DNA of 56,921 bases, taken from assembly GCA_032718475.1 (NCBI GenBank), contig JAUCBJ010005690.1, forward strand, positions 1 through 56,921, read 5' to 3'. The notes under the pieces are model-generated. The model saw only the letters and a list, made by a program, of their open reading frames with translations, did no database searches and was not told the origin of the DNA. A program made the position numbers and the translations under genes. The stretch is from Nemertoderma westbladi. Taxonomy: Eukaryota > Animalia > Xenacoelomorpha. Of the stretch, positions 26,221 through 56,921 are shown in pieces (the stretch's first letter is position 1; each line of letters begins with the position of its first letter).

Positions 26221-27180
26221 TTATTTATTATTACAAAAAGCTTTAATTTTCTCTGTAATAGAATATATAGCAGTTGTAACGGGAGTTTCATGGTTTCCAG
26301 AGTTACTATCGAACAAATTACTACCAAAGTCGCTGGCCTCCCCCAACCGGGGATCCAAAGGCACCGAGCCGAGAAACGGAACACCCATGGACTCGCACAT
26401 TCCAACAGCGCCCCCCGTAGTCCCCGCGAACACCTCACTAACACCCCGACAGTTCGGGCACACGAACTCCGTCATGTTCTCAACCACTCCGATGATAGGC
26501 AAACCAACTCGTCGACAGAAAGTAACTTCCTTTCGAACATCGAGTAGCGAAACCTCCTGCGGAGTTGTAACGATGACAACGCCGTCGCAGCCCACAGCTC
26601 CGAGGTACTGAACGATGGACAGGTGTTCGTCGCTAGTCCCTGGAGGAGTGTCTACTAGCATGTAGTCTATCTCGCCCCAATCAACATCGCGAAGGAACTG
26701 TTTAATCATCCCGTTCTTACGAGGGCCGCGAAAGATTATGGCGTCGTCTTCCGCTGGGAGGAGAAATGAGATAGACATTGTGTTTAACTTGTCGTCTACG
26801 TAGACTGGGGACCAACCGGAGCCGCTCTGGTGGACAGTCTCGCCCTGCACGCCCAGGATCCGTGGCATAGAGGGACCGCAGATGTCTGTGTCTACCACCG
26901 ACACCTGAGAATCCGACCGACAGAGGGCGTACGCGAGGTTAGCGGTCAGCGTGGACTTACCCACACCGCCTTTACCGCTGAGGATTACGATTTTGTGGGC
27001 GACGCCGCACAATCGGGATCGAATCGTCTCGATGTCCGGGTCCGGGCCCGTTTTTGCGGCGCCGCTCGCGCATATTTTTTGGTTGGGGCAGCCGCTACAC
27101 GGGGTGGCTTTACCAGCGGTGTCGCTAGCGGTTCCCGGACAGTGGGCCGGTGCGTCAGCAGGAACATCTACAACCTCCAT
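26221..27180 (-). CDS. NUBP1: Cytosolic Fe-S cluster assembly factor NUBP1/Nbp35 (Mrp/NBP35 P-loop NTPase), single exon
   Basis: N-terminal CX13CX2CX5C motif (HCPG...[11 protein letters not shown]), deviant Walker [40 protein letters not shown]. Likely ATG at 27180 (MEVVDVP); alternative in-frame ATG at 27207. Confidence 0.96.
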
Positions 27181-31696: not shown

Positions 31697-32050
31697 GTAT
31701 CAATCCCTAATACCAAAAGCTAGCGAGAAATTAACAACAACACCAACACCAACAACAACGGAGTGAATACTAGAGGTCTCGCGGAAATAAAAAGCACATG
31801 ACCATGAATGCCAAGTTCGTCATTTTCGTCATTCAGTCACAAGTAATTGATTTTATGCTTAATTCACGGGGAGACAAATCAACAAGCTCTTCAAAAACTA
31901 AGGACGGAGTTAGTAACAACTATTTGATAAAAGAAAAGTTAGAAACATATTTTAATTTGACAGTTTTATTGGAATTAGTGAATTTTATTTGAGAGGGTGG
32001 GATATAGGTTTCCCTTGGACACTGGGATTATAAAAAGTCATAAGTGGCTA

Positions 32051-34842
32051 GTAGATTGGTAGCAGGTTCTTCTGTGGAGGTGGATTGGTAGCAGGCGGGT
32101 CTGTGGTTGGTTGATTGGTAACATGAAGGTTCTTCTATGGAGGGGAGGTGGATTGGTAGCAGGCGGGTCTGTGGTTGGTTGATTGGTAGTAGGTTCTTCG
32201 TTGGCTGGTGGATTGGTAGCAGGTTCTTCTGTGGAGGTAGATTTGTAGCAGGCGGGTCTGTGGTTGGTTGATTGGTTGCAGGTTCTTCTATGGATGTGGA
32301 TTGGTAGCAGGCGGGTCTGTGGTTGATTGATTGGTAGCAGGTAGGTTCTTCTATGGAGGTGGATAGGTAGCAGGCGGGTCTGTGACTGGTTGATTGGTAG
32401 GTGGTAGCAGGTTCTTCTATGGATGTGGATTGGTAGCAGGAGGGTCTGTGGTTGGTTGATTGGTAGCAGGTTCTTTTGTGGCTGGTGGATTGGTAGTAGG
32501 TTCTTCTGTGGAGGTGGATTGGTAGTAGGCGGGTCTGTGGCTCGTAGATTGGTAGTAGGTTCTTCGTTGGCTGGTGGATTGGTAGCAGGTTCTTCTGTTG
32601 AGGTAGATTTGTAGCAGGCGGGTCTGTGGTTGGTTGATTGGTAGCAGGTTCTTCTATGGAGGGGAGGGGAGGTGGATTGGTAGCAGGCGGGTCTGCGGTT
32701 GGTTGATTGGTAGCAGGTTCTTCTGTGGAGGTGGATTGGTAGTAGGCGGGTCTGTGGCTGGTAGATTGGTAGTATAGGCGGGTCTGTGGCTGGTAGATTG
32801 GTAGTAGGCGGGTCTGTGGCTGGTAGATTGGTAGTAGGTTCTTCGTTGGCTGGTGGATTGGTAGCAGGTTCTTCTGTTGAGGTAGATTTGTAGCAGGCGG
32901 GTCTGTGGTTGGTTGATTGGTAGCAGGTTCTTCTATGGAGGGGAGGGGAGGTGGATTGGTAGCAGGCGGGTCTGCGGTTGGTTGATTGGTAGCAGGTTCT
33001 TCTGTGGAGGTGGATTGGTAGCAGGTTCTTCTGTGGAGTTGGAATGGTAGTAGGCGGGTCTGTGGCTGGTGGATTGGTAGCAGGTTCTTCTCTGGAGGTG
33101 GATTGGTAGCAGGCGGGTCTGCGGTTGGTTGATTGGTAGTAGGTTCTTCGTTGGCTGGTGGATTGGTAGCAGGTTATTCTGTGGAGGTGGATTGGTAGCA
33201 GGCGGGTCTGCTGTTGGTTGATTGGTAGTAGGTTCTTCGTTGGCTCGTTGATTGGTAGCAGGTTCTTGTGTGGAGGTGGATTGGTAGCAGGCGGGTCTGT
33301 GGTTGGTTGATTGGTAGCAGGTTCTTCGTCGGCTGGTGGATTGGTAACAGGTTCTTCTGTGGAGGTGGATTGGTAGCAGGCGAGTCTGCGGTTGGTTGAT
33401 TGGTAGTAGGTTCTTCGTTGGCTGGTGGATTGGTAGCAGGCGGGTCTGTGGTTGGTTGATTGGTAGTAGGTTCTTCGTTGGCTGGTGGATTGGTAGCAGG
33501 CGGGTCTGTGGTTGGTTGATTGGTAGCATGCAGGTTCTTCTATGGAGGTGCTACCAATCCACCAGCCAGTTCTTCGTTGGCTGGTGGATTGGTAACAGGT
33601 TCTTCTGTGGAGGTGGATTGGTAGCAGGCGGTGCTGCGGTTGGTTGATTGGTAGTAGGTTCTTCGTTGGCTGGTGGTTTGGTAGCAGGTTCTTCTATGGA
33701 GGTGGATTGGTAGCAGGCGGGTCTGTGGTTGGTTGATTGGTAGCAGGTTCTTGTGTGGAGGTGGATTGATAGCAGGCGGGTCTGTGGTTGGTTAATTGGT
33801 AGCAGGTTCTTCGTTGGCTGGTGGTTTGGTAGCAGGTTCTTCTATGGAGGTGGATTGGTAGCAGGCGGGTCTGTGGTTGGTTGATTGGTAGCAGGTTCTT
33901 GTGTGGAGGTGGATTGATAGCAGGCGGGTCTGTGGTTGGTTAATTGGTAGCAGGTTCTTCGTTGGCTGGTGGATTGGTAACAGGTTCTTCTGTGGAGGTG
34001 GATTGGTAGCAGGCGGGTCTGTGGCTGGTAGATTGGTTGCAGGTTCTTTTGTGGCTGGTGGATTGGTAGCAGGCGGGTCTGAGGTTTGTTGTTTGGTAGC
34101 TGGTTCTTCTATGGTGGTGGATTGGTAGCAGGCGGGTCTGAGGTTTGTTGTTTGGTAGCTGGTTCTTCTATGGTGGTGGATTGGTAACAGGCGGGTCTGT
34201 GGCTGGTAGATTGTTTGCAGGTTCTTCTGTGGCTGGTAGATTGGTTGCAGGTTCTTTTGTGGCTGGTGGATTGGTAGCAGGCGGATCTGTGGTTGGTTGA
34301 TTGGTAGTAGGTTCTTCGTTGGCTGATGGATTGGAAGCAGGTTCTACTGTGGGGGTAGATTTGTAGCAGGCGGGTCTGTGGTTGGTTGATTGGTAGCAGG
34401 TTCTTCTATGGAGGTGGATTGGTAGCAAGCGGGTCTGTGGTTGGTAGATTGGTTGCAGGTTCTTTTGTGGCTGGTGGATTGGTAGCAGGCGGGTCTGTGG
34501 TTGGTTGATTGGTAGTAGGTTCTTCGTTGGCTGATGGATTGGTAGTAGGTTCCTCTATGGAGGTGGATTGGTAGCAGGCGGGTCTGTGGTTGGTAGATTG
34601 GTTGCAGGTTCTTTTGTGGCTGGTGGATTGGTAGCAGGCGGGTCTGTGGCTGGTGGGTTGGTAGCAGGTTCTTCTATGGAGGTGGATTAGAGCAGGCGGG
34701 CTGTGGCTGGTAGATTGGTTGCGGGTTCTTTTGTGGCTGGTGGATTGGTCGCAGGCGGGTCTGTGGTTGGTTGATTGGTAGCAGGTTCTTCTATGGAGGG
34801 GAGGGGAGGTGGATTGGTAGCATGCTGGTCTGTGGTTGGTTT
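32051..34842. repeat. Complex 29-30-bp G/T-rich minisatellite (~2.8 kb) with alternating monomer types
   Basis: Monomers GATTGGTAGCAGGTTCTTCTGTGGAGGTG, GATTGGTAGCAGGCGGGTCTGTGGTTGGTT and GATTGGTAGTAGGTTCTTCGTTGGCTGGTG. Confidence 0.97.
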
Positions 34843-34930
34843 ATCCACAATCAAAACAGTGATACTTGATATATTTATGGGCGTAGTTGACATGGGCGTT
34901 TAGACTGCCCTGCTGTCTGAATTATTTGTT

Positions 34931-36157
34931 TCAATAACCGCACATATGTTTGATTAGTTTATGGATATAGTCGACATGTTTTTTTAGATCACTTTTGGTA
35001 CCAAATGATTTTCCACAATCAAAACAGCTGTACTTGATATCTTTATGGGCGTAGTTGACATGGGCGTTTAGACTGCCCTGCTGTCTGAATTCTTTGTTAC
35101 AATAACCGCACTTATGTTTGATTAGTTTATGGATAGAGTCGACATGTTTTTTTAGATCACTTTTGGTACCAAATGATTTTCCACAATCAAAACAGCTGTA
35201 CTTGATATCTTTATGTGTGTAGTTGACATGGGCGTTTAGACTGCCTTGCCGGCTGAATTCTTTGTTACAATAACCGCACTTATGTTTGATATCTTTATGG
35301 GCGCAGTTGACATGGGCGTTTAGATGGTCTTGCCGGCTAAATTCTTTGTTACAATAACCGCACTTATGTTTAATTAGTTTATGGATAGAGTCGACATGTA
35401 TCTTTAGATGGCCTCGCTGGCTGAATTCTTTGTTACAATAAACGCACTTATGTTTTATTAGTTTATGGATAGAGTCGACATGTTTCTTTACATAACTCTT
35501 CGTTGTAAACAGTTTCTCACAATAATCGCATTTATACTTATTCTTGACGTCTTTATGAAAGGATTCTATATGTCTCTCTAAATTTTCTCTGCCATTAAAT
35601 AATTCATTGCAATGCGAACAGCAACTGGTAGGCCTATCTGGAGAAAATTGGAACTCCCCAACAGCTTTACTAGAACTACAGGGATCTGTTGTTGCAAAAC
35701 CGATTGCCGGTTTAGTAGAGCTGCAAAGATCAACGTTGTCACGAGAGGTACAGGTACCAGCAGTATTACATTGTTTTCGAACAGTTCGAGTTTCGGCAAA
35801 TGGATCAATAACTATACAACCTTCAGATTTTACACTAATAAATTGCAGCCCACAAGCTGAATGTTGAATATGAATATTTGCATCTTCAGTTTCAATAGGC
35901 CTACCATACGAACATTCTGGGCTGTCATTTTCCTGTTTTTCGACAACAAAATAATCTCCAGAAATATCTTCGTCATCTTGTACAGGGACATCATCTACTC
36001 CACCAAACAAATTGTTATGATTTTCGATAGATGATCCGTAAACGCAGTTCTCCTGTTTAACTTCAACAGGATTGGGGGCACAGTCTGGTGGTTCTTTCTT
36101 TATAATTATCCCGGCACTGGAGGATTTTTTCTTCAAAACATTAATTTGTTGATTCAT
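34931..36157 (-). CDS. C2H2 zinc-finger protein, 8 intact CX2C...HX4H fingers (29-aa/87-bp period), C-terminally truncated
   Basis: Repeated KCGYCNKEF....L..HV...H units; acidic N-terminus with IKKEP/VKQE motifs. First ATG at 36157 (36163 is TTG). The stop replaces the second Cys of finger 9. Confidence 0.9.
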   Translation of the reverse strand: MNQQINVLKKKSSSAGIIIKKEPPDCAPNPVEVKQENCVYGSSIENHNNLFGGVDDVPVQDDEDISGDYFVVEKQENDSPECSYGRPIETEDANIHIQHSACGLQFISVKSEGCIVIDPFAETRTVRKQCNTAGTCTSRDNVDLCSSTKPAIGFATTDPCSSSKAVGEFQFSPDRPTSCCSHCNELFNGRENLERHIESFHKDVKNKYKCDYCEKLFTTKSYVKKHVDSIHKLIKHKCVYCNKEFSQRGHLKIHVDSIHKLIKHKCGYCNKEFSRQDHLNAHVNCAHKDIKHKCGYCNKEFSRQGSLNAHVNYTHKDIKYSCFDCGKSFGTKSDLKKHVDSIHKLIKHKCGYCNKEFRQQGSLNAHVNYAHKDIKYSCFDCGKSFGTKSDLKKHVDYIHKLIKHMCGY

Positions 36158-36165
36158 TATCAAAT

Positions 36166-36225
36166 CTTAATACCGGTAATTATATAGGCCTATCAATAAT
36201 TATAATTATACAGGTGATTACTTAC
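36166..36225 (-). other. Putative 60-bp 5'UTR intron of the zinc-finger gene
   Basis: Minus strand G|GTAAGT ... AT-rich ... TTAAG|ATTTGATAATG, ending 8 nt before the ATG. Inferred from splice consensus only. Confidence 0.4.
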
Positions 36226-42180: not shown

Positions 42181-42647
42181 ATGCTATCTTCCCGGTGAGA
42201 AGATAGCATCAACTTTAAGTGCGCTTCAATTCCGCTGGAACCCAAACTACTATCGGGTGTGGGGTGGAGTTATTTTCTCTGTACACGTCAACACCTCCTC
42301 TCCATACTTACCTCATACTCCTATACTCAACCCATGCTTGTTTCACTCCACTCACCCCCGACGAGCCTCACCCTCCCCTTTTGTGCCATCGCACTCAAGA
42401 AGTGTGATTCGTCTAGTGTCCCGTCCTCCTGTCATAGTGAATTGGTCCCCAGTCCCAGTAGCTAGTTGGAAAAAGGTTATATATGACTATAGTACTTACT
42501 TTGATTATATTCATTCTAATTATATTATAATTATATTGATTATTACATACGTACATACTAATTGCACTTAATTATTTTGCACTTAGGAGTTCGTATTATT
42601 TCCACATGTGGTACCTTCCAGGCACGCCCACTCTCCCCCTCTGAGTC

Positions 42648-45146
42648 CTAGTTCGCTCCTCCCGTCTTCGGGAACCATCTTAGGTCTTTCCCTCTAGCAT
42701 CCTCCTGTCTGGGCCGCTTCCTTCCCTCTGGTTTGTCCTCTCTGAGACTCCTCATTCTCGCCGTTACCACCTTGCTAATTCCTGTGGTCGATTCTTCGGG
42801 TGCTGGTGTTATTAACTCCCGGTAACGCTTTGCAGGTGGCCCTTCCGAATGCCCCTCCTGCTTCCCCCTGGTAGCGTCCCACAAGATCATTTTCATGGTT
42901 TGCGGCACGTGTTCCACCTGAAAGTCCCTAAACTCTCCTCTGTTTTCTGGCGTCCATCTATCCAAATACCTCTGCGTGTTGATGACTCCTCCATACGACG
43001 CCGCTGTAGCTACCTCTTGGTATGTAAATGGCAGTCTCCTCTTGATAATCTCCAGATGGGCTTCCTGATTGATGTTGAAGAAACCCCACCGGAACTCCTG
43101 GGCCTTCATCCTCTGTTGCGTCATAATGCTGATGTCGGCCCACTCCTCAAAGATCTTAAACTTCTCCTCGTCGTCCATCCAGTCGCACTGGCACCCATAG
43201 TGCCCTCGGGAGTTACACTTAGAGCAGCGGTTGTGCAGCCTCGGACATGCTCCCATCCCATGGCTCGACTCATGGCAGTAGAGACAACTCGTCCCCTTCT
43301 GAAATCGATACAAACAGCTCTTTTCCTGGTGAGTCAGCCTCCCGCAGTAATCACAGCCGTGTATTAACGCATCCCGCCCCAAGTCGTCTTTTGCCCCGAG
43401 CGGTCTCCTAGGTCTGTGGAGCCGTTGGTAGGCAAATAACATCTCTTTCCATATCCACGTTCTCCTCCCGTCTTGGCATCGTCTCTCCAAACACTACCCG
43501 TGGTGCCATTCCCGGTTGCTCACCCAACCTGATGATGCTCCCCGCAAAGTCCATCGCCGGCTCCTCGTGCACCCAGGTCTGCTTGCCGGGCTTATCCCAG
43601 AAGGCCCTCGCCCCGCTGGCCGTCACCACTCTCCCGCCCACCCTGTCCGTATCTAAGTGGCCGAACTCATCTTCATCCTCTTCCCTCGCTGGGAGTGGAT
43701 CCAGACCCGGTAGACCCACTATGCCACTTTCTGGCTTGGCTTCTACCCGTAACTTCCCATCCTTCCTGTTCCCTCGGTCTCTTTCTTACGGAATCGCCCT
43801 CAGAGCCCACTGGCATGGGCATCGCTTGCAATCCCAATGTCGACTGTTTCGGCGATTCTTCCGTCCATCCTAGCTCCTCTCCCAGAAACTCGCCCGAGCT
43901 CCCTGATCTCCACCTCAGCTCGTCCAAGTTCTGGGCCTCGAACCCGTAATCCTCTCCCCTAACCTCCGCATCTCTCTCATCTGCCTCCCTCCTTTCTCGC
44001 CTGGCGACTTCCTCCATTCGCTTCTCCTCAAGTCTATCCGCTTCCAGCTTATCCCATCCCTTGTATGGTGTATCCACCTCCCTGTCTACTAGGTGCTGGC
44101 TGTTGTAGTATACCGACTCGCCCTTCAGCCCTGGGTGGTCTACCAGACCTTTGAAGGAAACCTTAAAGGCTCTTCTGTAGTTTAGCGGTGATCCTGATAG
44201 CAGAAACGCCATCGGCTCTCTTCCAATAACCACGGCCATGAATAGGTTTAGTAAACCTATCATTATCCAATCCTCCTGACATGTCTCTTCTGATATATCT
44301 TTATCATTCCTCTCCGGAACTGATACACCTCCTGTTTCCTTGGCCTCGCTCCCCACTTCAGCGAGTTCGCCAGCTCCGCTAATTACTCCTCCCGGAACTT
44401 ACCCCAGTCCATCGGCTTGTGGCAGACGAGCCCCATGAGTTGACCCATCACCACTGCTCTGCAATGTCCTGTGTTCTCTACCAATCCCAACCCGTCTGGC
44501 CCTGTCATGGCCATATAGACCGCTTGCATGTCCAGGAGGTTGGCGGTCTCCGGTCCGACGATCCTCTCCGCATCGTTGCGGATCGCTGATCCCACCTTCA
44601 CCATTGTCTTCTCTCTTACTAGGTCTTGCACTGCCCTTGGCAACCGGTTTAACTTCGGCCTGCTCTTCTTGCCGTACATTCCTAGATCGAATAGGAATAT
44701 GTCTCCATTTGGCGCAGACAAATGCATAGTATGGTTCTAGCCGATCCTGCCGACCCTCTTCTTGAACCCTCTTCGTCCTCCACAGTCCCTTTGTCGTCTA
44801 GGACCATGTATCCTCCCCTGTTCACAGACTCTACAAACCTCCTCCAGTCCTTTCTCGGTGGTTCTATCGGATACTTCGGTATCCCGAACTTTGCTTCGTC
44901 TCCTTTCACTATGTAGCAAAAATGCTTGAGGATTGCATTGTCCAGCGACGGTGTCCCATAGGTCCCGACCAGTCGTCTCTCGTGCATCTCCCTTAAGTGG
45001 TCCTGCAGTGCTCGCGCTTTGTGACCCTTCGCTAGCGGCTCGTAGTATCCCCTTGTCTTCTCCTCCGGATGCCTTTGCGTGAAGTCCACTAGTATCTCCT
45101 TTCCACTCCTCTCCGTCTTTCTCTTCTTAACAAGTCTCTCCGCCAT
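42648..45146 (-). pseudogene. Extra ORF of the LTR element: DEDDy-like 3'-5' exonuclease domain plus three CCHC zinc knuckles (frameshifted)
   Basis: HLSAPNGDIFLFDL...LPRAVQDLVREKTMVKVGSAIRNDAE...NLLDMQ resembles the WRN/RNase D exonuclease core; QKR.CQEDW resembles ExoIII. Knuckles: CDYCGRLTHQEKSC, CLYCHESSHGMGAC, CSKCNSRGHYGCQC. Confidence 0.65.
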
Positions 45147-45674
45147 TACGAACTTCCTCGCTCGCTCACCTGCTTGCTGGTGCCTTGCCAAGGCTCAAGT
45201 AGATGAGTGACGTTTAGTAGGATGGTCTGTACTGGTTAAGTAATGGCCTATCTCTCTCAAATGCTAAATTTGTAGTATATTTTTACCTATACGCCCCGCA
45301 AAGTGCCAATTTCCTAAATTTCCTAAATCTGTCAGTTACTTTTATTATGTTCTAGAATCTTTTACTTACTGTTACGATAATTTGTCAGATTTACTTCTAA
45401 TACTATTTTATTTTATTTTTTTGTTAGTATGCTATTATCGCTTATGGTGGGTTATTTTATTTAGATAACCCATATGGTTTGTATACAGGGTAGACTAGCT
45501 ATTCTCTACTGTGCTAGTCCGTCCAGGTAGCCTCCTGGCCCTGTATCAAACATCCTAACTTACTCTATGGGCCATGCAGTACAGTAGTCTGTCTCATGCG
45601 GCCTACATGGTCTATCCTGCTGTACCCACGTGCCCCCCTCTCTATTTCGTGGCGCTCTCTATGCCCACAACCTC

Positions 45675-46335
45675 TACGGTACTACATACCCTGCTACTGC
45701 TACTCTTATGATACATCTATATACCATATTCTTTACTCTCTTACTACTAACTCTTACCAACTCTACTAACTCTATCGGTACTACATACCCTGCTACTACT
45801 CTCATGGTATGATTATATGCCACACTCCCTATACTTCTAACTCCTACCAGCGGTACTATGTACCCTGCCACTACTCTCGTGGTATGCCAAGATACCACAC
45901 TCCCTATACTTTTAACTTCTACCAGCGGTACTATGTACCCTGCCACTACTCTCGTGGTACGTCAATATACCACACTCCCTATACTTCTAACTTCTACCAG
46001 CGGTACTATGTACCCTGCCACTACTCTCGTGGTATGTCAATATACCACACTCCCTATACTTCTAACTTCTACCAGCGGTACTATGTACCCTGCCACTACT
46101 CTCGTGGTATGTCAATATACCACACTCCCTATACTTCTAACTACGGTACTATATACCCTACTACTCTCGTGGTACGTCAATGTACCACACTCCCTAACTT
46201 CTGCCTACGGTACTATGTACCCTACTACTCTTGTGGTACGTCAATGTACCGAACCCCCTAACTTCTGCCTACGGTACTATGTACCCTACTACTCTCGTGG
46301 TACGTCAATGTACCACACTCCCTAACGTCTGCCTA
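45675..46335. repeat. Tandem repeat (75-bp and 64-68-bp units) between pol and the extra ORF
   Basis: CGGTACTAT(G/A)TACCCT starts at 45851, 45926, 46001, 46076, 46144, 46208 and 46272. Confidence 0.93.
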
Positions 46336-46494
46336 CTTACTTAGTGTTACGCACTATCTACTACTATTACTTTGTAACTTTCTACTACCTCACTTCTTAA
46401 TTTTATTATTTTATTATTTTTTTATATTTTGTGTGGGAAGGGCGTCTCTCCCTCATTCCCAGCCCCCTCAGTCCAACATTTGGACGACTGAACT

Positions 46495-49400
46495 CTAAGG
46501 TGCCCCTTCTAATAGGCAGCACTTTCCTACAGCCCTCCTGTAGGTCTTCCTGTCCTTTGCTCCTATCTTGCCTCCTATTCTCACTTCCACCGACCGGACT
46601 CTTCCGTCCTCGTCGGGGTAAGTATCTACCACTCCCGCTAGCCTCCACTGGTTATTTATAATTGTGTCGTCAGTAACGATTACCAAGTCACTTTTCTTCA
46701 GCTCCCTAGTGGTGTTTCTCCACTTACTCCTCCTGTGTAATGTGGGAAGATATTCCTCTACCCATCTCCTCCAATACTTGACGCTTATTGCCTTGGCGAC
46801 TTTCCAACTTTGGCGGGAATGTATGTCGTCTGGGTCTACGCCCCGCATGTCGATGGTCGCCGGCCTCTCCATCAGAAAGTGTCCCGGTGTTAGCACGTCC
46901 AGTGATTCTGGGTCGTCATTCTCCGGATATAGCGGTCTGCTATTAATGATTCCCTCGCACTTGGCAAGCACCGTTCTTAGTATGTCCTCTGTGACCATGT
47001 GGGTGTTCATCAACTTCGTCATTAAACGCTTAGAACTTCCCACAAGTCTCTCTACACATCCTAAGGTATGTGGTGTGTACGGTGTCCTCCTTTCCCACTT
47101 CACTTGCCATCTCCTCATAGCCACCCTGACATCTTCTCCCTCCAGGATGTTGAAGGCCTTGGCCAACTCGTTCTCTGCTCCAACGAAGTTGGTCCCGTTA
47201 TCTGAATAAATCACCGCGATTGTTCCCCCTTTGCGGTCTCTAAATCTCTCTAAGGCATTAATAAATGCCGATGCCGTAGCGTCCTGCGCGAGTTCTATTC
47301 CTACCGCCCTCGTATTGTTGCATACGAAGATAATGCCGTGGCGTTTCTCCGTGTGTCGCATCACCTTAATCTTAATCGGCCCGAACATGTCTATGCCGCA
47401 GTGTGTGAATGGCGGGTCGTGTTGTCTCACTATGTTGGCCGGTAATGGCGCCATCTCCTGTATGGCCCTCTCCTTTCTCACCCTTCGGCAGGTCTGGCAC
47501 TGCCCCACTACCGCCTTCACCTTCTTCCTAAGTTGCGTGATCCAGAATGTTCTTCTTATCTCTGTGAGGGTCTGATTCGTGCCTCCATGTAGTATCAACT
47601 TATGCGAGTCCCAAATGATTTGGTGGACTATCGGTGATTTGTTAGGAATGATTATGGGTTTCGGTGGGATAACTAGGCTGTTGTTGTTCACCACTCTGGA
47701 ATTCATCACCAGAATCCCATCATCATTCAACTGTGGGGACAGCATGTTGAGCTCGCTGTCTCGACGAAGGTGTTGTTGCTTGCTAACTCTATCCACTTCG
47801 TCGGCGTAGTTCTTTCTCTGCTCGTACCGTATTACGGCTTTAGCCACTCCTTCCAGATCGATGTTTGGTTTCCTTTTGGCATCCTTGCCAACTCCCCTAA
47901 GGAAATCCCCGTAGACCTTCCAATACACTACCAACTTCTTGGTCTTATACCAGCTGGAGCTGTAACTGAGCAACCTATCTGTCGGGTTGTCGCATGGTTC
48001 TTCTAATTTCGGTGGCACCTCCTTGATCTCCCTCACTATCTGGCTGTATATCTCTTCCCCTTCTGAATCTTCCCCCTCTTCTTCTGGTACTACTTCCTCT
48101 GAGCCCTGGTCCACCTTCCTCATTGGTGGCCAGGCTGATCTATCGCTCAGGAAGTGTGGCCCGTGCTGCCACAACACTTCCTTCTTCGAGAAAGTGTGGC
48201 ATGCCACGCCCCTCGATAACAAATCTGCTGGGTTGTCGTCGGTAGGGCAGTAATGCCACCTATCTAGGTCGGTCATCGCCCTTATCTCGTCTACCCTATT
48301 CGCGACGAATATAGGGTATCTCGTCTTCTCATTATGCAGCCACCCTAGCACTACCATGGAGTCCGTCCAGTAGTGTGTCTCCACTATGTTGGGTATAGTG
48401 TCCATCAAGTAGGCTGTGGCCCTTACTCCTAACCTCGCAGCTGTCAACTCGAGTTTCGGGACTGACCCTGATTCTGGTGGCATCGACTTCGCTTTACTAA
48501 ATGCAAGTCTGGGCTTATGAACCCCCTTTCGCTGTACCAGATAAAGTGCCGCTCCATACGCTTCTAAAGATGCATCAGAAAACATATGTAGATCCAGGTC
48601 CGTCATGTCCCCGTCCGGGAAATACACGCGTGGCATGCTGTACATCCCCATCTGTTCTAGACTTCCCGTCCACTTACTCCACTGTTTGCTTATTTCTTCC
48701 GGGACCTCCGTATCCCACTCGTCCTTCAACTTGTATACTTTCTTTAGTATCTGCTTCCCTGTGACTAACAATGGGGATGCTAGGCCTAAGGGATCGTATA
48801 TCCTTGCTATGTACAATACATAGCCTCGCTTTGTGTGGATCTCTGCGCCCTCCTGGCTTAGTTGATACTCCAACTCATCCGTCTCCCGGTTCCACACAAT
48901 CCCCAGCGCCTTCTGCTGAGACTCCACTCTCTTGTTCGCCATGTCCTGTCCCTTCGCTGTTGTGGGGTTGCCCATGGTCGACTCTGGCCGCCTGTCTTCT
49001 ATGGCTTTCATGAACTTCTCTGAGCTGGACTGGAACTTAGTCAGGTTGAATCCGGATCCCTTTACGATATCGCGAACCTCGCACCCTATATCCAGTATTT
49101 CTTCAACCGTGTTTCCAGATCCCATCCCATCGTCTATCTAGAAACCGCATCGAATCATGTCGATCGACTTGGCACTATACTCTCCCTCTTTCCCCTCTAC
49201 CGTATCTCTCACAGCCAGAGTCGTCATAAATGAGGATGACTTGGCCCCCATGTTTTGCACCACCATCTTGTACATCGGTATCGCAGACGGTTCCTCGTCA
49301 CCGTTATACCACAGGAAGCGCTGGCTGTCACTGTCCTCTTCCGTCACACAGACTTGGTTGAACATGCCTTCGATGTCGCACGTGAAGGTGTGCCTCCCAT

Positions 49401-50540
49401 TCCTAAATCTCAACAAGACCTCTATCCCCAAGTTGTAGATGTTGGGGCCCTCCAGCAGATAGTCGTTAATAGGCTCTTGCCATTCGTTTTGGCCGATGCA
49501 TCAACCACCATCCGCAGTTTACCCTTCTTTGGGTCTAAAGCCACATGAAGTGGCAGGTAGTAGGTCCAGTCCGTGTTCGGTTCGTCGACCGGTAACTCCA
49601 CGGCCCATCCCTTTTCCATGTATTTCTTTATTGTCTTATGGATCTACTCATCCTACTCGGGGCTCTGTCTGAGTGTTTGCTTCAGTTTGCAAAGCCTCTT
49701 GAGTACCATCCCTTTATTGTCAGGCAACGGTAGTTTTGGTTGGTTGTTTCCACACCATGCCTATGGTGTACCATCCCTCGTCGCACTTCATCGACTCCTT
49801 CATGCTTTCTATTGCTTGTTTATCCTCTACCGAGGTTCCGACCCCGGCCTCCTTTAATCCTTCGAAGTCCTCTCTTAACAGCCTCTTAAGCTGCTCTTTT
49901 GATCCTTCATCCTCCATCTCCCTCATGGTCCCCGCGAACATGCACCCCGATGTCTCCGACACCCTGAATGGAATCTTGGTTTTGATTGGGCCGCTAAGTG
50001 TTCATCCGAACGGTGTGAGAACTGCCATTGGATCACGCTGCCTGTCCTCTCCGAAGATTGTTCGTACTCTCTCGTGGGCCATCGGACAGTCCATCCCCAC
50101 TATGATGGATACCTTCCGGACGTCCACTTCCGGTATCGAGAAATCGATTTCATCCAGGAATCTGTATTACTCGACCTCGTTGTTAGTTGGTCGCCTGGCA
50201 TTTATGTTGATCGATTCTATTACCTGAATGGGGTCGATGGTCGCCCCATAGTCACATCCCAGTGCTATTGCTGATATCTCGCACCTTCCCGTCCTCATCT
50301 CCAGGACCTCATCCAGGATCTCCAGTTACTGCCATCCTGCTCGGCCTCGTCTGTAACTTTATCTCCTCGGCCACCCAATTCTGCACCAATGTGAAGGCTG
50401 CTCCATGGTCGACCAGCATCAACGTGGTAATTGATCGACCGCTTTCTCCCATTACCCTCACCGGTACCGCCCCGAGTAGTACCATTCCCCTTCTCTTCGC
50501 ACCTACGGTGCTTGTCGCCATCGTTTTGCCTTTGCCTTGA
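46495..50540 (-). pseudogene. BEL/Pao pol (protease, RT, RNase H, integrase); 46495-49125 is still open (876 aa)
   Basis: PR LVDHGAAFT; RT YLPLH, KLRMVVDAS, CDIEGMFNQV, F*IDD (TAG at 49138-49140 replaces the Y of YxDD); RH LHMFSDASLEAYGA, PKLEL, WTDSMVVL; IN H..H..CQTC, GIDMFGP, SDNGTNFVGA, ERLVG. Confidence 0.95.
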
Positions 50541-53500
50541 CCGAATATAATTGGTGTCTCTTTACATTGCTCAGCCTTGTGTCTGCCTGCCACACATCGA
50601 TGACAGATTCCACTTTCGTTCGCGTATTCTAGCTGATCTTGTTTGGGTAATGCTTGCCAGTACCTGCAGTTCATGGTCTGATGATTGATGAAGTGCGTTC
50701 GAAAGTAATTGGCATTTGTTTCTCGGATTATAGCCTCCCCTATATAGCACGCTCCGTATCGCACGTACATTCATACTTAGCTCTCTACTGTTCTTATTAT
50801 TTGGGTTTGGCCTACTGGGCGTGTTGGGGCTGTATTTATTTGTGTTATTATTTTGTCCCTGTCCATGCCATGGTATGGCCCTACCCCCGGCTATCTCTGA
50901 ACTAGCAGTCCTCTGCGTCGTCGCGTATGGTAGCGATTGTCTGAGCTTTGGTAATGCATTTGCCGCATTATGTTCTGGTTTCAGCCTGCTATATTCGGTC
51001 TTCCGGATCTAATCCCGTTGTTCGCGCTACCCAATCGCCTACACTATCTCTTCCAGCATGGCCTATAGTATGTGCAGTAAGGCCTACAGTATGTCCTGCA
51101 GTCTGCCTATGTCCCTCCAGACCGAAGTGTAATCTTCTCGAATATTCCAAGAAGTCCTCCCCGCGACCACCGTACTCTCGATCGGCAACTATATCCCGTC
51201 GGGAAGTTTCTCTGCAATCCCCTCTTCTGTCCTCGTCCTCGTACCGGTACATCCTGTACCCTTCTCCCGGCGTATGGTATATCTTGCCAGGCTGCATCTC
51301 TCCGGGGCGACGGCAATCTCCCGGAGTTCGACCCCACTGACTCTCTAACTCCATCTCTGCCACCGACGGTTCGCTGTCCAACCTCGCTCTCCGGTTGCTC
51401 GTAGCAACGCTTCTTCTATTCTCTTCACTTCTTCTCTCCTCAGTGTAGCACTCCCGCTAATAAGATCTCTCTTCGACCTCCCGTTTAAACTCTACTGTTC
51501 TTCTTCCATCTTCCGACTGGGCTCAACGTCACATCGCTCGCCCGCTCACAGCACCAACCTCTCTCTCTCTCTAGCCGGTTGGACGCTCCTGGGGATACTC
51601 GCAATCCCCCTACTATTCTCCGTCGTCGGGTGCCGCGGTTAACCTAACTCTCCCCGCGCATTATCCGCCGATGCTTGTGGGGCATTCTCTGCCGCCCCCC
51701 CCCCCCCCTCTCACCACTAATCTCCCGTGGTGGGGCACCCGTAGCCCCCCCCCCCCCATTCACCACCTCTTACTTCGCTACCTCCTACTTCGCTTCTACG
51801 CCCCTCTCTAGTCGATGCATTATCTCTACTGTGGCTGGGTCTACTCACCCCCGCCTCTCCCTGTGCGACTGTGTGGCCTTGCAGGCTCCCATCGGGTTGA
51901 CTCACCCCCGCTACTCCCTGCCTAACTACATGGCCTTGCAGGCTCCCATTGGGGCGACTCACCGCCGCTACTCCCTGCATAACTACATGGCCTTGCAGGC
52001 TTCCGTCGGGTTCACTCACCCCGCTACTCCCTGCACAACTATGTGGCCTTGCAGGCTCTCGCTGTCCGGACTACCTGTGTCCCCTACATTCGTTTTAATA
52101 GCACCGTTATCAATAATATTGTTATCTAAATTATTTAAATTATTTAAATTATTTTGTTCGGATTTGTGGTTATTATTTGGATTACTTTGTACATTTAAAT
52201 TAGAATTATTATTTGGATTATTTTGTGTGTCTAAATTAGTGTTATTATTTGGATTACCGGTATTTTATGCGTTTAAATTAATATTATTTGGATTATTTTG
52301 TATGTTTAAATTAGTATTATTATTATTTTGCACATTTGAATCAAAATAACTATTACTGGGTAAAACATTATTTCCTGCAATAAAGGTTTGATTAGGGTTG
52401 TCTACTACAGTACTATTAATATTAATTCTTTCTAACGTATTATTATTACCCCCCCCCCCCCCTCCCCCCCCCGTCCATACGGTTACAACAGTCCTGGGTC
52501 TGTCGTCCAGTACCTGTAAGTAGGGTATTAACAAATGTTTCCATTACTTCGGGCTCCCCATAAATACTACCCGAACCGGCCTCACTCTCAGATAATCCCA
52601 ACTGCGCCAGTTCTAATCGGCGCTTTTGCTTTGTCTGGTATTGCATAAGCCCGCTTAACCGGGTATGCATATCATCCCGCATACGCTTTCCCGTTCTCTC
52701 TCTCTCTCTGTCCTCTCGCAAACTTTGGTCGGCCAACTCTGCCTCTCTCGCAATCCTCTCAAGCCTCCTCGCCTCATGCTCCTTGCGCTCGCTCGCCTCT
52801 CTCGCCTCTCGCTCTTTACATTCCCTTAATTCCCTCTCCTCACCCTCTCTAAAGTTCCTCGCGACCCTCTCAGCCATCTCTTTACTCTCTCTCACTAACT
52901 CTCTCTCTTTCTCTAATAATGCGGTTCCCTCATCCAATTGCCTCTCCAACTCTTTCTGGTCCAACGCCATCATATCTAGTTGACACGCCAGATCTATCTC
53001 TAACACCCTAACACCTAACACCTCTAACACCAGGATGTAGCGGACTTTTCACTCACAACGGACTCCCGTCGCCTCTCCGTCCTACTAACTTTCCCCCGCT
53101 TTCTGGGGTTCTCGCTAACCGACGACACCGAATCCTCGGGGTTAATCTCGGGTTCGCCGTCGTGCGGGTCCGCCCAACCCACTAGCTTAATTCCCCTAGC
53201 ATCCACTAAGTAAGGCTACACTACATCTGGATCACCACAATTCAAACAGTTCCGTGGCGACCCCCCTCGCTCTCTCACCTGCCAGTTCTCCCTGTCCAAA
53301 TGGACTAAATAGTGGAACTGTTTATTCGACTCACCTAGCCTCTGATATAGTTTAGGCTGGTCTACCTTTCTCCCTTCTTTGGCCTCCTTAAGTAACTTCT
53401 TGGTGACGTTGTAGGCCCGTCGTAGCCGATCACTCGTCCCGACGTCCTCTTCGCCAACTCCTCCTCCTCTCCTTGTCCGGCATCGTACCAGCGGCCCCAC

Positions 53501-53773
53501 TGTCGCCGTTCTGGTGGGCCATCCATCGCCCTCGGCCTGTGGCTGGCTGGCGACTTCGGTACTCCGACCGCCGTCATGCGTCGACTCGTCTCCCTCTCGT
53601 GGTTGACGGCCGCCCTCCTCTTGGACAGCCGGATCGTCTCTCGTTGGCGAATCCAGCGTGGGAGGCCGATACCGTCTTGTCGCAGCCTCACGGATTGTTT
53701 GGTTGGTGTCGTCCGGGGTCCGCGGCGGCGTCCTCTCTCCCTCTGATAATCGGGGCGTTCCTTCTTCCGCCAT
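50541..53773 (-). pseudogene. gag-like region of the BEL/Pao element, multiply frameshifted
   Basis: ATG at 53773 just inside the 5' LTR; E/R-rich coiled coil, low-complexity tracts and a Zn knuckle (CHRCVAGRHKAEQC) upstream of the protease. Confidence 0.75.
51843..52060. repeat. 57-bp (19-codon) tandem repeat within gag, ~4 copies
   Basis: ACTCACC starts at 51843, 51900, 51957 and 52014; encodes (GSLQGHVV.QGVAGVS.P.)n on the minus strand. Confidence 0.9.
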
Positions 53774-53826
53774 CTTTCTATTTTCTCTTCGCAGTCACAG
53801 TTTATTGGCAGGTGGCAGTTAATGAC

Positions 53827-54423
53827 TGTAACGGGATCGGAGATCCCGACTGGGTTAGAAATGTACGCATCACCATTCTGCTGGGGATCGTGCTACTAGC
53901 TTTGGCCGAGGCCGTTTGGGAAAAACAGTGAAAGTTTCTGTTGTCCCCTCGATATTAATTAATATGGACAATAATAGCACGCCAGTAGATAATAAGCAGA
54001 AAATATAGATTAATTATTACCGGTATGGCGGTGGCGGTCATTACCTATGACCAGTCTGCACTGACTGAACTGAATAATACAACTGACCAGTAAACCAGTA
54101 ATGTAACATAATATATGATTTACACATTGAATATTGGTTTACCTCCTACTCTACTTTGGCCCTCTACCCAATGGATGCTTTCCCGTTCCCTATCATGTGC
54201 TTCCCTCTCCACTATTGGCTAATATACTACTTGTCACTTTGGGACTGTGGTTTGACCTCTCACCTTTCTCTGTGGCTTTGGGGCTTGTGTCCCCCCCCCC
54301 CCCCCCCCAATGTTGGTTATGATACGAGATTAATATTGGTAATCTCGTATCCCCAACATATTGCTAAAATGCCTCTAGTCCCATTTTCTGGTGGGTAATG
54401 AAGTGGAATTGAATCCGCTTACA
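53827..54423 (-). repeat. 5' LTR (597 bp)
   Basis: TGTAACGGGATCGG...GAATCCGCTTACA followed by the TSD GCCAC. Confidence 0.96.
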
Positions 54424-54845: not shown

Positions 54846-54915
54846 AAAATGTTATAGTACATTATGATAATGCTCTCCATAGCGAAAAATATCAACCGCC
54901 CCTATTGGGGCTCGA

Positions 54916-54959
54916 ACCCGGTACCTAGGTTTCAAACTTCCGGTTATCATCAGCTGAGT
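54916..54959 (-). ncRNA. Type I hammerhead ribozyme, copy 1 (weakened stem I)
   Basis: ACTCAG CTGATGA TAACCGGAAGTTT GAA ACCTAGGT A CCGGGT; stem I has an A-C mismatch and a U-G pair. Confidence 0.7.
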
Positions 54960-55262
54960 GTGTGTCCTAAGACCACTGAGCTACCAGGGCGGTAGAAGAT
55001 TTATTCGCTATGGAGTGGGGTATCATTTTTAGGCCTTTTTACGTCACTCATAGTAAAGTACAACGTTATTCCCGAGCTCTGCCAGAAATGGCAACCATGC
55101 CTCAAAGAATAACTATTATACAGTGTTGTAGAAACCACTGTAACCCCGTATGCCGGCCATGCGTGTTAATTAATTATAAATGAATTGTTGTGGGGAGGGT
55201 GACGGCGAATTAAATAAATGTTATAGTACATTATGATAATGCTCTCCATAGTGAAAAATATC

Positions 55263-55362
55263 AACCGCCCCTATTGGGGCTCGAACTCGGTACCTAGGTT
55301 TCAAACTTCCGGTTATCATCAGCCGAGTGTGTGTCCTAAGACCACTGAGCTACCAGGGCGGT
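55263..55362 (-). promoter_or_regulatory. Pol III type-2 internal promoter cassette in each 369-bp unit (copy 2 shown)
   Basis: A box TAGCTCAGTGG (55352-55342), B box GTTCGAGCC (55286-55278), closing stem ACCGCCCT/GGGGCGGT, T5 run a few nt downstream. Confidence 0.7.
55285..55328 (-). ncRNA. Type I hammerhead ribozyme, copy 2
   Basis: ACTCGG-CTGATGA-T AAC CGGAA GTT T-GAA-ACCTAGGT-A^CCGAGT: perfect 6-bp stem I, intact core, palindromic stem III, GUA cleavage site between 55291 and 55290. Confidence 0.85.
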
Positions 55363-55653
55363 AGAAGATTTATTCACTTTGGAGTGGGCTATCATATATA
55401 GGCCTTTTACAGTCACTCATAGGAAAGTACAACGTTATTCCCGTGCTCTGCCAGAAATGGCAACCATGCCTCAAAGAATAACTATTATACAGTGTTGTAG
55501 AAACCACTGTAACCCCGTATGCCGGCCATGCGTGTTAATTAATTATAAATGAATTGTTGTGGGGAGGGTGACGGCGAATTAAATAAATGTTATAGTACAT
55601 TATGATAATGCTCTCCATAGTGAAAAATATCAACCGCCCCTATTGGGGCTCGA

Positions 55654-55697
55654 ACTCGGTACCTAGGTTTCAAACTTCCGGTTATCATCAGCCGAGT
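55654..55697 (-). ncRNA. Type I hammerhead ribozyme, copy 3
   Basis: Identical to copy 2. Confidence 0.85.
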
Positions 55698-56022
55698 GTG
55701 TGTCCTAAGACCACTGAGCTACCAGGGCGGTAGAAGATTTATTCACTTTGGAGTGGGCTATCATATATAGGCCTTTTACAGTCACTCATAGGAAAGTACA
55801 ACGTTATTCCCGTGCTCTGCCAGAAATGGCAACCATGCCTCAAAGAATAACTATTATACAGTGTTGTAGAAACCACTGCAACCCCGTATGCCGGCCATGC
55901 GTGTTAATTAATTATAAATGAATTGTTGTGGGGAGGGTGACGGCGAATTAAATAAATGTTATAGTACATTATGATAATGCTCTCCATAGTGAAAAATATC
56001 AACCGCCCCTATTGGGGCTCGA

Positions 56023-56066
56023 ACTCGGTACCTAGGTTTCAAACTTCCGGTTATCATCAGCCGAGT
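56023..56066 (-). ncRNA. Type I hammerhead ribozyme, copy 4
   Basis: Identical to copy 2. Confidence 0.85.
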
Positions 56067-56391
56067 GTGTGTCCTAAGACCACTGAGCTACCAGGGCGGT
56101 AGAAGATTTATTCACTTTGGAGTGGGCTATCATATATAGGCCTTTTACAGTCACTCATAGGAAAGTACAACGTTATTCCCGTGCTCTGCCAGAAATGGCA
56201 ACCATGCCTCAAAGAATAACTATTATACAGTGTTGTAGAAACCACTGTAACCCCGTATGCCGGCCATGCGTGTTAATTAATTATAAATGAATTGTTGTGG
56301 GGAGGGTGACGGCGAATTAAATAAATGTTATAGTACATTATGATAATGCTCTCCATAGTGAAAAATATCAACCGCCCCTATTGGGGCTCGA

Positions 56392-56435
56392 ACTCGGTAC
56401 CTAGGTTTCAAACTTCCGGTTATCATCAGCCGAGT
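56392..56435 (-). ncRNA. Type I hammerhead ribozyme, copy 5
   Basis: Identical to copy 2. Confidence 0.85.
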
Positions 56436-56760
56436 GTGTGTCCTAAGACCACTGAGCTACCAGGGCGGTAGAAGATTTATTCACTTTGGAGTGGGCTATC
56501 ATATATAGGCCTTTTACAGTCACTCATAGGAAAGTACAACGTTATTCCCGTGCTCTGCCAGAAATGGCAACCATGCCTCAAAGAATAACTATTATACAGT
56601 GTTGTAGAAACCACTGTAACCCCGTATGCCGGCCATGCGTGTTAAATAATTATAAATGAATTGTTGTGGGGAGGGTGACGGCGAATTAAATAAATGTTAT
56701 AGTACATTATGATAATGCTCTCCATAGTGAAAAATATCAACCGCCCCTATTGGGGCTCGA

Positions 56761-56804
56761 ACTCGGTACCTAGGTTTCAAACTTCCGGTTATCATCAGCC
56801 GAGT
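56761..56804 (-). ncRNA. Type I hammerhead ribozyme, copy 6
   Basis: Identical to copy 2. Confidence 0.85.
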
Positions 56805-56921
56805 GTGTGTCCTAAGACCACTGAGCTACCAGGGCGGTAGAAGATTTATTCACTTTGGAGTGGGCTATCATATATAGGCCTTTTACAGTCACTCATAGGA
56901 AAGTACAACGTTATTCCCGTG

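What the first reader, a model, noticed from the sequence alone, without database searches (positions are those of the whole stretch)
55291..55299. Palindromic stem III (ACCUAGGU) predicts a dimer-dependent double hammerhead
Seen: stem III is only the self-complementary octamer ACCTAGGT, too short for a stable hairpin (2 bp plus a CUAG loop) but able to form 8 bp with the same segment of another copy. Known: newt satellite 2, ASBVd and Penelope-associated minimal hammerheads cleave in dimeric form via palindromic stem III. Inference: cleavage would be licensed mainly in tandem transcripts, making array structure part of the catalytic mechanism.
Basis: partly seen in the sequence, partly recalled or inferred. 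Interest (0 to 1): 0.7.

Follow-up and report, generated by a model that had tools for sequence, protein, structure and literature searches.

The report
Hammerhead retrozyme inside a tRNA shell
Each 369-base unit of this tandem repeat carries a hammerhead ribozyme motif where the anticodon arm of a tRNA-like sequence would be; the short palindrome in it is real and is predicted to let two copies pair, but this is a common trait of such ribozymes and likely boosts cutting rather than being required for it.

Summary
The palindrome is real: ACCTAGGT lies at 55292-55299 and forms helix III of a minus-strand type I hammerhead, present in 6 of 6 units of a 369-bp array. Folding models favour a double hammerhead over two monomers by 5-6 kcal/mol.

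Strict dimer dependence is not established:
- A 2-bp helix III with a tetraloop is the usual invertebrate form, reported to cleave as a monomer.
- The closest form, axolotl Amex2, is dimer-enhanced only.
- Each ribozyme is predicted to be clamped in a local hairpin first.

The dimer idea is known, so interest there is low.

The hammerhead sits between the A and B boxes of a tRNA-derived shell, replacing the anticodon arm, so cleavage would split the element's own predicted Pol III promoter. Contigs show a large family, a compensatory change in helix I, and two recurrent 3' ends in AT-rich flanks that resemble Penelope-type copying.

Best reading: a Penelope-mobilised non-LTR retrozyme with an internal tRNA promoter. 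Expression and cleavage are untested. The scan has noted related elements in other genomes; I saw none with this nesting.

The parts
54847..56921 (-). Tandem array, 5.6 copies of a 369-bp unit, running off the window end; its left end (54847) is the 3' end of the element on the ribozyme strand
   Evidence: TRF period 369, 99% matches; units 3-6 differ from unit 2 by 0-1 base, unit 1 by 13; junction
55216..55584 (-). Unit 2, the unit that holds the finding; 42.5% G+C, non-coding
   Evidence: no ORF of 150 aa or more in the array
55370..55396 (-). 5' arm of the long imperfect hairpin that encloses the tRNA shell
   Evidence: inverted repeat I1, 27 nt, 78%; pair 55376/55252 is U-A in units 2-6 and C-G in unit 1 and in most contig depth of X1 and X3
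55265..55360 (-). tRNA-derived shell (acceptor-like stem, D arm, T arm) with the hammerhead in place of the anticodon arm
   Evidence: ARAGORN pseudogene call for unit 1 at 90% threshold (3 of 1000 shuffles) and for unit 2 only at 85% (56 of 1000); two-halves pattern finds tRNA genes in 121 of 122 loci
55342..55352 (-). A box-like motif TAGCTCAGTGG
   Evidence: consensus pattern recalled
55285..55328 (-). Type I hammerhead: helix I 6 bp (55323-55328 with 55290-55285), core CUGAUGA 55322-55316, helix II 3 bp plus U.U (55315/55303), loop 2 of 5 nt, GAA 55302-55300; predicted cut between 55291 and 55290
   Evidence: pair 55326/55287 is U-A here and C-G or U.G in most of the family
55292..55299 (-). 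Palindromic helix III / loop 3 (ACCUAGGU), the feature reported
   Evidence: no variant listed at 3% or 1% of summed contig depth
55277..55287 (-). B box / T-loop, overlapping the 3' strand of hammerhead helix I; full match in unit 1 (54918-54908) and most of the family, one mismatch in units 2-6
55254..55258 (-). Run of five T just 3' of the tRNA shell, the only T4+ run on this strand of the unit; predicted Pol III stop
   Evidence: no variant listed here; terminator rule recalled
55232..55258 (-). 3' arm of the long hairpin
55216..55232 (-). Main recurrent 3' end of family copies (about 60-75 nt after the cut site)
   Evidence: loose ends at 55217-55236 in X1, X3, X4, X5; matches the array's own end at 54847
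55170..55171 (-). Second recurrent 3' end, 46-52 bases further on (Penelope 'tail'-like)
   Evidence: loose ends in X1 (6 contigs), X4 (1), X5 (1)

Best explanation
This is a young tandem repeat whose unit carries a type I hammerhead motif nested in a tRNA-derived shell, and it is likely a non-autonomous retrozyme copied by Penelope-type enzymes, in which the palindrome likely enhances but does not license cleavage.

Shown by sequence or calls: the array; the hammerhead motif; its position between A-box and B-box motifs in place of the anticodon arm; the enclosing hairpin; the T5 run; a large polymorphic family with compensatory changes in helix I and the hairpin; two recurrent 3' ends in AT-rich flanks; some inverted joints.

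Inferred steps:
(1) Pol III starts from the internal A/B boxes. Most transcripts would stop at the T5 as about 110-nt RNAs with one ribozyme each.
(2) Read-through or passing transcripts span several units. These must be the copied form, because the family's 3' ends lie 20-85 bases beyond the T5.
(3) Each hammerhead cuts, as a monomer at a modest rate and faster when two pair through ACCUAGGU. This frees a 369-nt RNA that starts with the B-box half and ends with the A-box half, its ends held together by helix I and the long hairpin.
(4) A host RtcB-type ligase closes the circle, as shown in vitro for other animal retrozymes.
(5) A Penelope-type RT-endonuclease nicks AT-rich DNA, starts at one of two internal sites and copies across the junction, which restores the A-then-B promoter and makes tandem copies.
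For: Hammerhead: 0 of 20,000 shuffles. The only three variants in 55285-55328 that reach 3% in both X1 and X3 are 55287, 55326 (the two partners of one helix I pair) and 55310 (loop 2); none is in the core or helix III.

tRNA shell: ARAGORN pseudogene call in 3 of 1000 shuffles; A+B pair in 2 of 20,000 shuffles. The pattern made from the two halves returns tRNA genes in 121 of 122 loci, spacing 43-44 in 113 of 124 matches against 64 here.

Retrozyme class: 369-bp tandem unit, below 50% G+C, no ORF, one type I hammerhead per unit, as defined in PMC7229834.

Penelope-type ends:
- Loose ends into diverse AT-rich flanks at 55217-55236 (X1 16+13+3 contigs, X3 15+7+9, X4 2+2, X5 1) and at 55170/71 (X1 6, X4 1, X5 1); only 20 of 423 rows were shown.
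- Opposite-strand joints in X1, X3 and X4.
- One 181-nt contig uses one end on each strand (X5 record 26, depth 3).
- Compare the inverted copy and one-sided tail in PMC8557442 and the two internal RT starts with AT-rich targets in PMC11167929.

Dimer enhancement; Amex2 analogy.
Against: No raw RNA reads, so transcription, strand, cleavage and circles are all untested.

The hammerhead lacks the usual G10.1-C11.1 pair, has only 3 Watson-Crick pairs in helix II, and scores far below Rfam thresholds. The active fold is predicted 6.6 kcal/mol above the ground state, and I had no known-active control to calibrate that. In Xenopus 8 of 9 predicted retrozyme dimers did not cleave in vitro. The PAc Penelope hammerhead needed protein and was dispensable for insertion in vitro.

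The B box has a mismatch in units 2-6. Sister subfamilies appear to lack 55335-55343, which removes the end of the A box (loose ends at 55334). Rfam's tRNA model did not match even at E 10.

The circular fold is not unusually stable (z = -1.2). The two ends are 46-52 bases apart, longer than the 30-40-bp tail described for Penelope. No autonomous Penelope element or target-site duplication could be examined (no genome held; the array leaves the window). Units 2-6 could equally have been amplified at DNA level.
Confidence: 0.6

Rival explanations
1. One reading: the ribozyme is strictly dimer-dependent and cuts only when two units in a tandem transcript swap helix I and pair through the palindrome.
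For: The lone helix III is unstable (+2.0) and the duplex stable (-11.4). The double fold is 5-6 kcal/mol better than two monomers. At 25 C the unconstrained two-unit MFE already contains the octamer duplex, tied with the local fold (-264.8 vs -264.7). Helix II is weak. The palindrome is invariant in the family. PMC4209133 states that an unstable helix III impedes monomer cleavage.
Against: The same helix III build cleaves as a monomer in invertebrate retrozymes, and to 22% in Amex2. Helix I is the canonical 6 bp with an internal loop beyond it. The local hairpin forms first, and the swap has a large predicted barrier. There is no covariation for the palindrome, whose chance level is 0.065.
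Confidence: 0.2
2. A Sm-alpha-like SINE copied by a LINE rather than by Penelope enzymes: a Pol III tRNA-derived retroposon whose hammerhead frees monomers from multimeric transcripts.
For: tRNA-derived A/B boxes plus a hammerhead in tandem repeats is the Sm-alpha/Sj-alpha design (PMC6765202; PMC2770079).
Against: No poly(A) or simple-repeat tail at the array's 3' end. Two discrete 3' ends and inverted joints. In Sm-alpha the promoter is described as followed by the ribozyme, whereas here the ribozyme lies inside it.
Confidence: 0.1
3. A DNA-level satellite: a dead or silent fragment (an old pseudo-LTR or SINE) amplified by unequal exchange, with the hammerhead and tRNA motifs no longer functional in this array.
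For: Units 2-6 are almost identical and share a B-box mismatch. Unit 1 has a C.A mismatch at helix I pair 1.2/2.2. One high-depth 1.9-kb relative in X4 appears to carry changes at core positions 55319 and 55322 (same depth value). The window holds other satellites.
Against: The core is intact in 6 of 6 units and nearly invariant across the family. Units 2-6 keep helix I pair 1.4/2.4 as Watson-Crick through a change on both sides relative to the family's G-C.
Confidence: 0.1

Closest known systems
Metazoan non-LTR retrozymes (PMC7229834, parts 2-4 of 6 read; review PMC7761336, passages; preprint 10.64898/2026.07.22.740005, parts 1-3 of 5)
   Same: Tandem non-coding unit of 150-450 bp, below 50% G+C, one type I hammerhead per unit, proposed mobilisation by Penelope-like elements.
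   Different: PMC7761336 says they do not seem to harbour promoters. This unit has tRNA-derived A/B boxes and a T5 run, with the ribozyme inside them.
Axolotl HHR_Amex2 in the 350-bp retrozyme (PMC7229834)
   Same: Helix III of 2 bp with a tetraloop, U.U at the base of helix II, similar unit length.
   Different: No tRNA shell is described in the text I read. Its sequence is in figures and a supplement that I did not open, so it was not compared letter by letter.
Schistosoma Sm-alpha / Sj-alpha SINE-like hammerhead retroposons (seen only through passages of PMC6765202 and PMC2770079; the 1998 primary paper is not held)
   Same: tRNA-derived Pol III promoter plus hammerhead, in tandem repeats; cleavage leaves promoter parts at the 3' end of the monomer.
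   Different: Described as a promoter followed by a ribozyme. Here the cut falls between the A and B boxes, and the B box doubles as part of helix I.
Penelope pseudo-LTR minimal hammerheads, newt satellite 2 / HHR_Amex1, ASBVd(+) (PMC4209133 parts 1-2 of 4; PMC6466107 passages; the 2017 RNA Biol dimer paper is not held)
   Same: Palindromic loop 3 and the option of a double hammerhead.
   Different: Min-HHRs usually lack helix III and have helix II of 7-8 bp and helix I of 4-5 bp; Amex1 has a 1-bp helix III. This one has 2 bp plus a tetraloop, a short helix II and a 6-bp helix I.

Membership tests
Type I hammerhead ribozyme | Core CUGANGA...GAAA...UH with three helices, ends in helix I | tested here: met
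   0 of 20,000 shuffles; compensatory pair 55287/55326
Type I hammerhead ribozyme | G10.1-C11.1 pair and 4-bp helix II (PMC4209133) | tested here: not met
   U.U at 55315/55303 and 3 Watson-Crick pairs; the same departure is described for active HHR_Amex2
Type I hammerhead ribozyme | Loop 1 - loop 2 tertiary contact | tested here: inconclusive
   U at position 1.7 (55284) and A at the 3' end of loop 2 (55307) are present; their role is recalled, not from a call
Type I hammerhead ribozyme | Self-cleavage | not testable with these tools
   needs an in vitro assay or raw RNA reads
Dimer-dependent hammerheads (newt/Amex1, PLE min-HHR) | Palindromic helix III/loop 3 and tandem arrangement | tested here: met
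Dimer-dependent hammerheads (newt/Amex1, PLE min-HHR) | Helix III of 1 bp or absent | tested here: not met
   2 bp plus tetraloop, the invertebrate/Amex2 form
Dimer-dependent hammerheads (newt/Amex1, PLE min-HHR) | Monomer inactive, dimer active | not testable with these tools
   folding energies only, with no calibrated control
Non-LTR retrozyme | Tandem 150-450-bp non-coding unit, G+C under 50%, type I hammerhead in two or more consecutive units | tested here: met
   369 bp, 42.5% G+C, motif in 6 of 6 units
Non-LTR retrozyme | Expressed as linear and circular RNA | not testable with these tools
   only contigs were available
Non-LTR retrozyme | Highly self-paired circular fold | tested here: inconclusive
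   circular MFE -90.6, z -1.2 against 100 shuffles; the local hairpin is clear
Penelope-mobilised element | Fixed 3' ends with an optional 30-40-bp tail, inverted copies, AT-rich targets | tested here: inconclusive
   two ends 46-52 bases apart, AT-rich flanks and inverted joints, from short contigs with 20 of 423 loose-end rows shown
Penelope-mobilised element | Homology to a pseudo-LTR of an autonomous PLE in the same genome | not testable with these tools
   no genome held
tRNA-derived SINE (Sm-alpha type) | tRNA-derived A and B boxes | tested here: met
   one B-box mismatch in units 2-6
tRNA-derived SINE (Sm-alpha type) | Promoter followed by the ribozyme | tested here: not met
   the ribozyme lies between the boxes
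tRNA-derived SINE (Sm-alpha type) | LINE-type tail and target-site duplication | tested here: inconclusive
   no poly(A) at the one end in the window; the other end is outside it
Functional tRNA gene | Complete cloverleaf with anticodon arm | tested here: not met
   ARAGORN default finds 0; no Rfam tRNA match

The most novel reading that the evidence does not exclude
A retroelement whose ribozyme cuts its own Pol III promoter in two. Unit-length RNA is a permuted tRNA mimic (B box first, A box last) whose ends are clamped like spliced-tRNA halves for RtcB. Only circles, or copies made across the junction, regain a working promoter. Short T5-terminated RNAs carry one weak ribozyme, while read-through RNAs cut efficiently as double hammerheads. 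One 100-nt module would thus serve as promoter, ribozyme scaffold and ligase substrate, and would answer how an animal retrozyme is transcribed.
Probability: 0.25. Interest if true: 0.7.

Novelty: new variant of a known kind. Interest (0 to 1): 0.42.

Why it matters
The dimer proposal alone adds one more example to a mechanism known since 1988.

The nesting matters more. How animal retrozymes are transcribed is open (PMC7761336 reports no promoters), and this family offers a built-in candidate promoter that its own ribozyme would split. That gives a direct test of whether circularisation is a needed step of the life cycle. It also sits between hammerhead retrozymes, Sm-alpha-type SINEs and the tRNA-bearing Penelope-type repeats that this scan has noted elsewhere.

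A natural tRNA scaffold with a self-cleaving anticodon arm is also a ready test construct for Pol III-driven RNA circles.

Tried and rejected
Genome and expression
- No whole genome is held, so there is no copy count, TSD survey or search for an autonomous Penelope element.
- Run search: no RNA holder listed. X5 is only guessed to be RNA, comes from another organism label, and gave 2 contigs at depth 3-4; it is not used as evidence of expression.
- Summed contig depth varies more than tenfold along the unit. It is not a copy number, so I drew nothing from it. One search did not list the known variant at 55287, so places near the ends of that stretch are not covered.

Ideas tested and dropped
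- A 'blocking strand': 55343-55335 pairs with the palindrome in the predicted ground state. Shuffling those 9 bases gave an equal or larger gap in 163 of 300 trials, so it is not shown to be a switch.
- Relatives elsewhere: hammerhead+B-box patterns in viral contigs (7 loci) and metagenomes (71 loci). 0 of the 77 matches my script recovered from these 78 loci had helix I of 4 or more and helix II of 3 or more. These collections hold little animal DNA.
- ARAGORN's Pro(CGG)/intron call is an artefact of reading loop 2 as an anticodon.
- The 'local to two monomers' barrier is void because the target had rearranged; one search replaced it.
- The exact look-up of the NUBP1-like protein found nothing; the organism was not identified further.
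- The pair count on alignment A1 failed on a length slip and was not repeated; A1 has only 2 distinct rows.

Literature
- Not held: the 2017 RNA Biol dimer paper and the 1998 Sm-alpha paper. One search fetched an unrelated paper.
- No supplements were opened. Those of PMC7229834, PMC4209133 and the 2026 preprint hold hammerhead sequences that could bear on both the Amex2 comparison and the novelty claim.
- Searches for a hammerhead inside a tRNA-derived promoter listed no such paper, judged from titles and abstract starts plus the passages cited. Repbase and subscription journals were not searchable.

Full report
1. Observation. The octamer ACCTAGGT lies at 55292-55299 and once in each of the 6 units of a 369-bp array that runs from 54847 to the window end. 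On the minus strand it is helix III and loop 3 of a type I hammerhead: helix I of 6 bp, CUGAUGA, a U.U pair, 3 bp of helix II with a 5-nt loop, GAA, AC-CUAG-GU, then A17 at 55291. My descriptor matched 0 of 20,000 shuffles of the unit and nothing in window 1-54846. Rfam gave no match at gathering score and a weak HH9 match at the same place. The palindrome alone is weak: 5 such 8-mers per kb in this window, and p about 0.065 once the hammerhead is given.

2. Setting. The window holds a 13-bp satellite, an intronless NUBP1-like ORF, a C2H2 zinc-finger ORF and broken BEL/Pao frames (Pfam on 5 of the 27 ORFs). BEL/Pao points to an animal (recalled). No genome is held. Six runs of four studies hold the unit or part of it. 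X1 and X2 are one sample, and X1 or X4 may be the window's source, so X3 is the safest independent witness.

3. The hammerhead lies inside a tRNA-derived shell. An A-box motif starts at 55352 and a B-box motif at 55287 (full match in unit 1 and in about 91-97% of summed contig depth; one mismatch in units 2-6). ARAGORN finds nothing by default. It draws acceptor, D and T arms for unit 1 at 90% threshold, which 3 of 1000 shuffles reach, and for unit 2 at 85%, which 56 of 1000 reach. Their spacing is 43-44 in 113 of 124 matches, against 64 here. The extra length is the hammerhead, which replaces the anticodon arm, and the 3' strand of helix I runs into the B box. A T5 run follows at 55258-55254, the only T4+ run on this strand. 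The whole shell tops a long hairpin with arms 55370-55396 and 55232-55258. Rfam's tRNA model did not match, so this is a derived shell and not a tRNA gene.

4. Family evidence (contigs only). laid 1519, 806, 83 and 2 contigs from X1, X3, X4 and X5. Within 55285-55328 three variants reach 3% in both X1 and X3: 55287 and 55326, which are partners in helix I (A-U here, G-C or G.U in most depth), and 55310 in loop 2. No variant is listed in 55288-55309 at 3%, nor in helix III at 1% (whose table misses places near its ends). The hairpin pair 55252/55376 also changes on both sides. Against this: 55268 varies without a listed partner change for its commonest form; unit 1 has a C.A mismatch in helix I; and a 1.9-kb contig of X4 appears to carry two core changes. 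Copies end at two recurring places, 55217-55236 and 55170/71, in varied AT-rich flanks (20 of 423 rows shown), and the array's own end matches the first. Opposite-strand joints occur, and one low-depth contig uses one end on each strand. This resembles the two internal RT starts, AT-rich targets, tail and inverted copy of Penelope-like elements (PMC11167929 parts 1-2 of 4; PMC8557442 passages), though the spacing here is 46-52 rather than 30-40 bases.

5. The dimer claim. For: the lone hairpin is +2.0 and the duplex -11.4 kcal/mol; the isolated double hammerhead is -19.6 against -4.2 for two monomer folds. In two full units the double form wins by 5.0 (37 C) and 5.8 (25 C). Two 109-nt RNAs would dimerise at equilibrium with Kd near 5 uM. 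Against: the local hairpin is predicted complete by 140-168 nt, and the pseudoknot-free route to the double form costs about 71 kcal/mol against 17 to the monomer fold (branch migration, which these models ignore, could lower the first). Both active folds lie above the predicted ground state, and no known-active hammerhead was folded as a control. In print, 2 bp plus a tetraloop is the invertebrate form. Coral and mussel retrozymes cleave as monomers, Amex2 gives 22% as a monomer and much more as a dimer, and the poor monomers have 1 bp or none (PMC7229834; PMC7761336; PMC4209133). With its U.U at helix II this ribozyme is closest to Amex2. I put dimer-enhanced at 0.4, monomer-sufficient at 0.3, strictly dependent at 0.2 and inactive alone at 0.1.

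6. Mechanism. Most likely (0.6) a non-autonomous retrozyme moved by Penelope-type enzymes, with an internal tRNA promoter. Cleavage between the boxes would give a 369-nt RNA that starts with the B half and ends with the A half. In the predicted fold its first bases pair with positions 332-337 and the hairpin arms pair across the junction. RtcB circularises other animal retrozymes in vitro. Copying across the junction would restore the promoter. Transcription, cleavage, ligation and the enzyme used are all inferred.

7. Comparison and novelty. It meets the sequence criteria of non-LTR retrozymes, which a 2026 preprint links to Penelope pseudo-LTRs. It differs in having promoter motifs, which PMC7761336 says retrozymes seem to lack. 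Sm-alpha has a tRNA-derived promoter followed by a hammerhead (primary paper not held). Searches listed no paper on a hammerhead inside the promoter. Unread supplements, Repbase and subscription papers could change that. My reading was written down before the first look-up of earlier notes. Those notes, unchecked, describe hammerhead retrozymes with Penelope ends, tRNA-bearing repeats without a ribozyme, and one hammerhead behind a tRNA-like promoter in other genomes; none for this sequence or genome.

8. Verdict. Observation confirmed; interpretation partly supported and already known in kind; the element is a new variant of a known kind. Interest 0.42: about 0.2 for the dimer claim, raised by the nested tRNA-ribozyme module.

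Noticed in passing
window 54847-55215 (unit 1): All 13 differences from unit 2 fall in unit positions 37-229 and none in 230-369; several match the family majority. The terminal unit looks like a mosaic, from a template switch or recombination.
   Followed up: partly
window 55335-55343: Many contigs (36 in X1, 19 in X3, 20 in X2, 2 in X4) leave the reference at 55334 and appear to resume at the A-box motif, i.e. sister subfamilies without these 9 bases, which are a near reverse complement of the palindrome region.
   Followed up: partly
contigs of about 1,915-1,920 nt in X1, X3, X4 laid on window 55281-55435: A longer element ends in a diverged copy of the tRNA 5' half and hammerhead; in X4 it appears to have core changes. 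A possible longer or autonomous relative; its sequence could not be retrieved.
   Followed up: no
window 1691-25284: A 13-bp satellite of about 1,813 copies with strong A/T strand skew.
   Followed up: no
window 26221-27252 (-): Uninterrupted ORF for a NUBP1/Nbp35-like P-loop NTPase (PF10609, E 5.5e-91); intronless, so a compact gene or a retrocopy.
   Followed up: partly
window 32044-36166: A C2H2 zinc-finger ORF (34931-36166, -) whose finger repeats form 84/168-bp tandem arrays, followed by a 30-bp repeat array of about 91 copies with long open frames on the minus strand.
   Followed up: no
window about 42600-53900 (-): BEL/Pao-type LTR retrotransposon in several separate frames; 46495-49137 matches Peptidase_A17, DUF5641 and integrase families. 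It ends about 1 kb from the array.
   Followed up: partly
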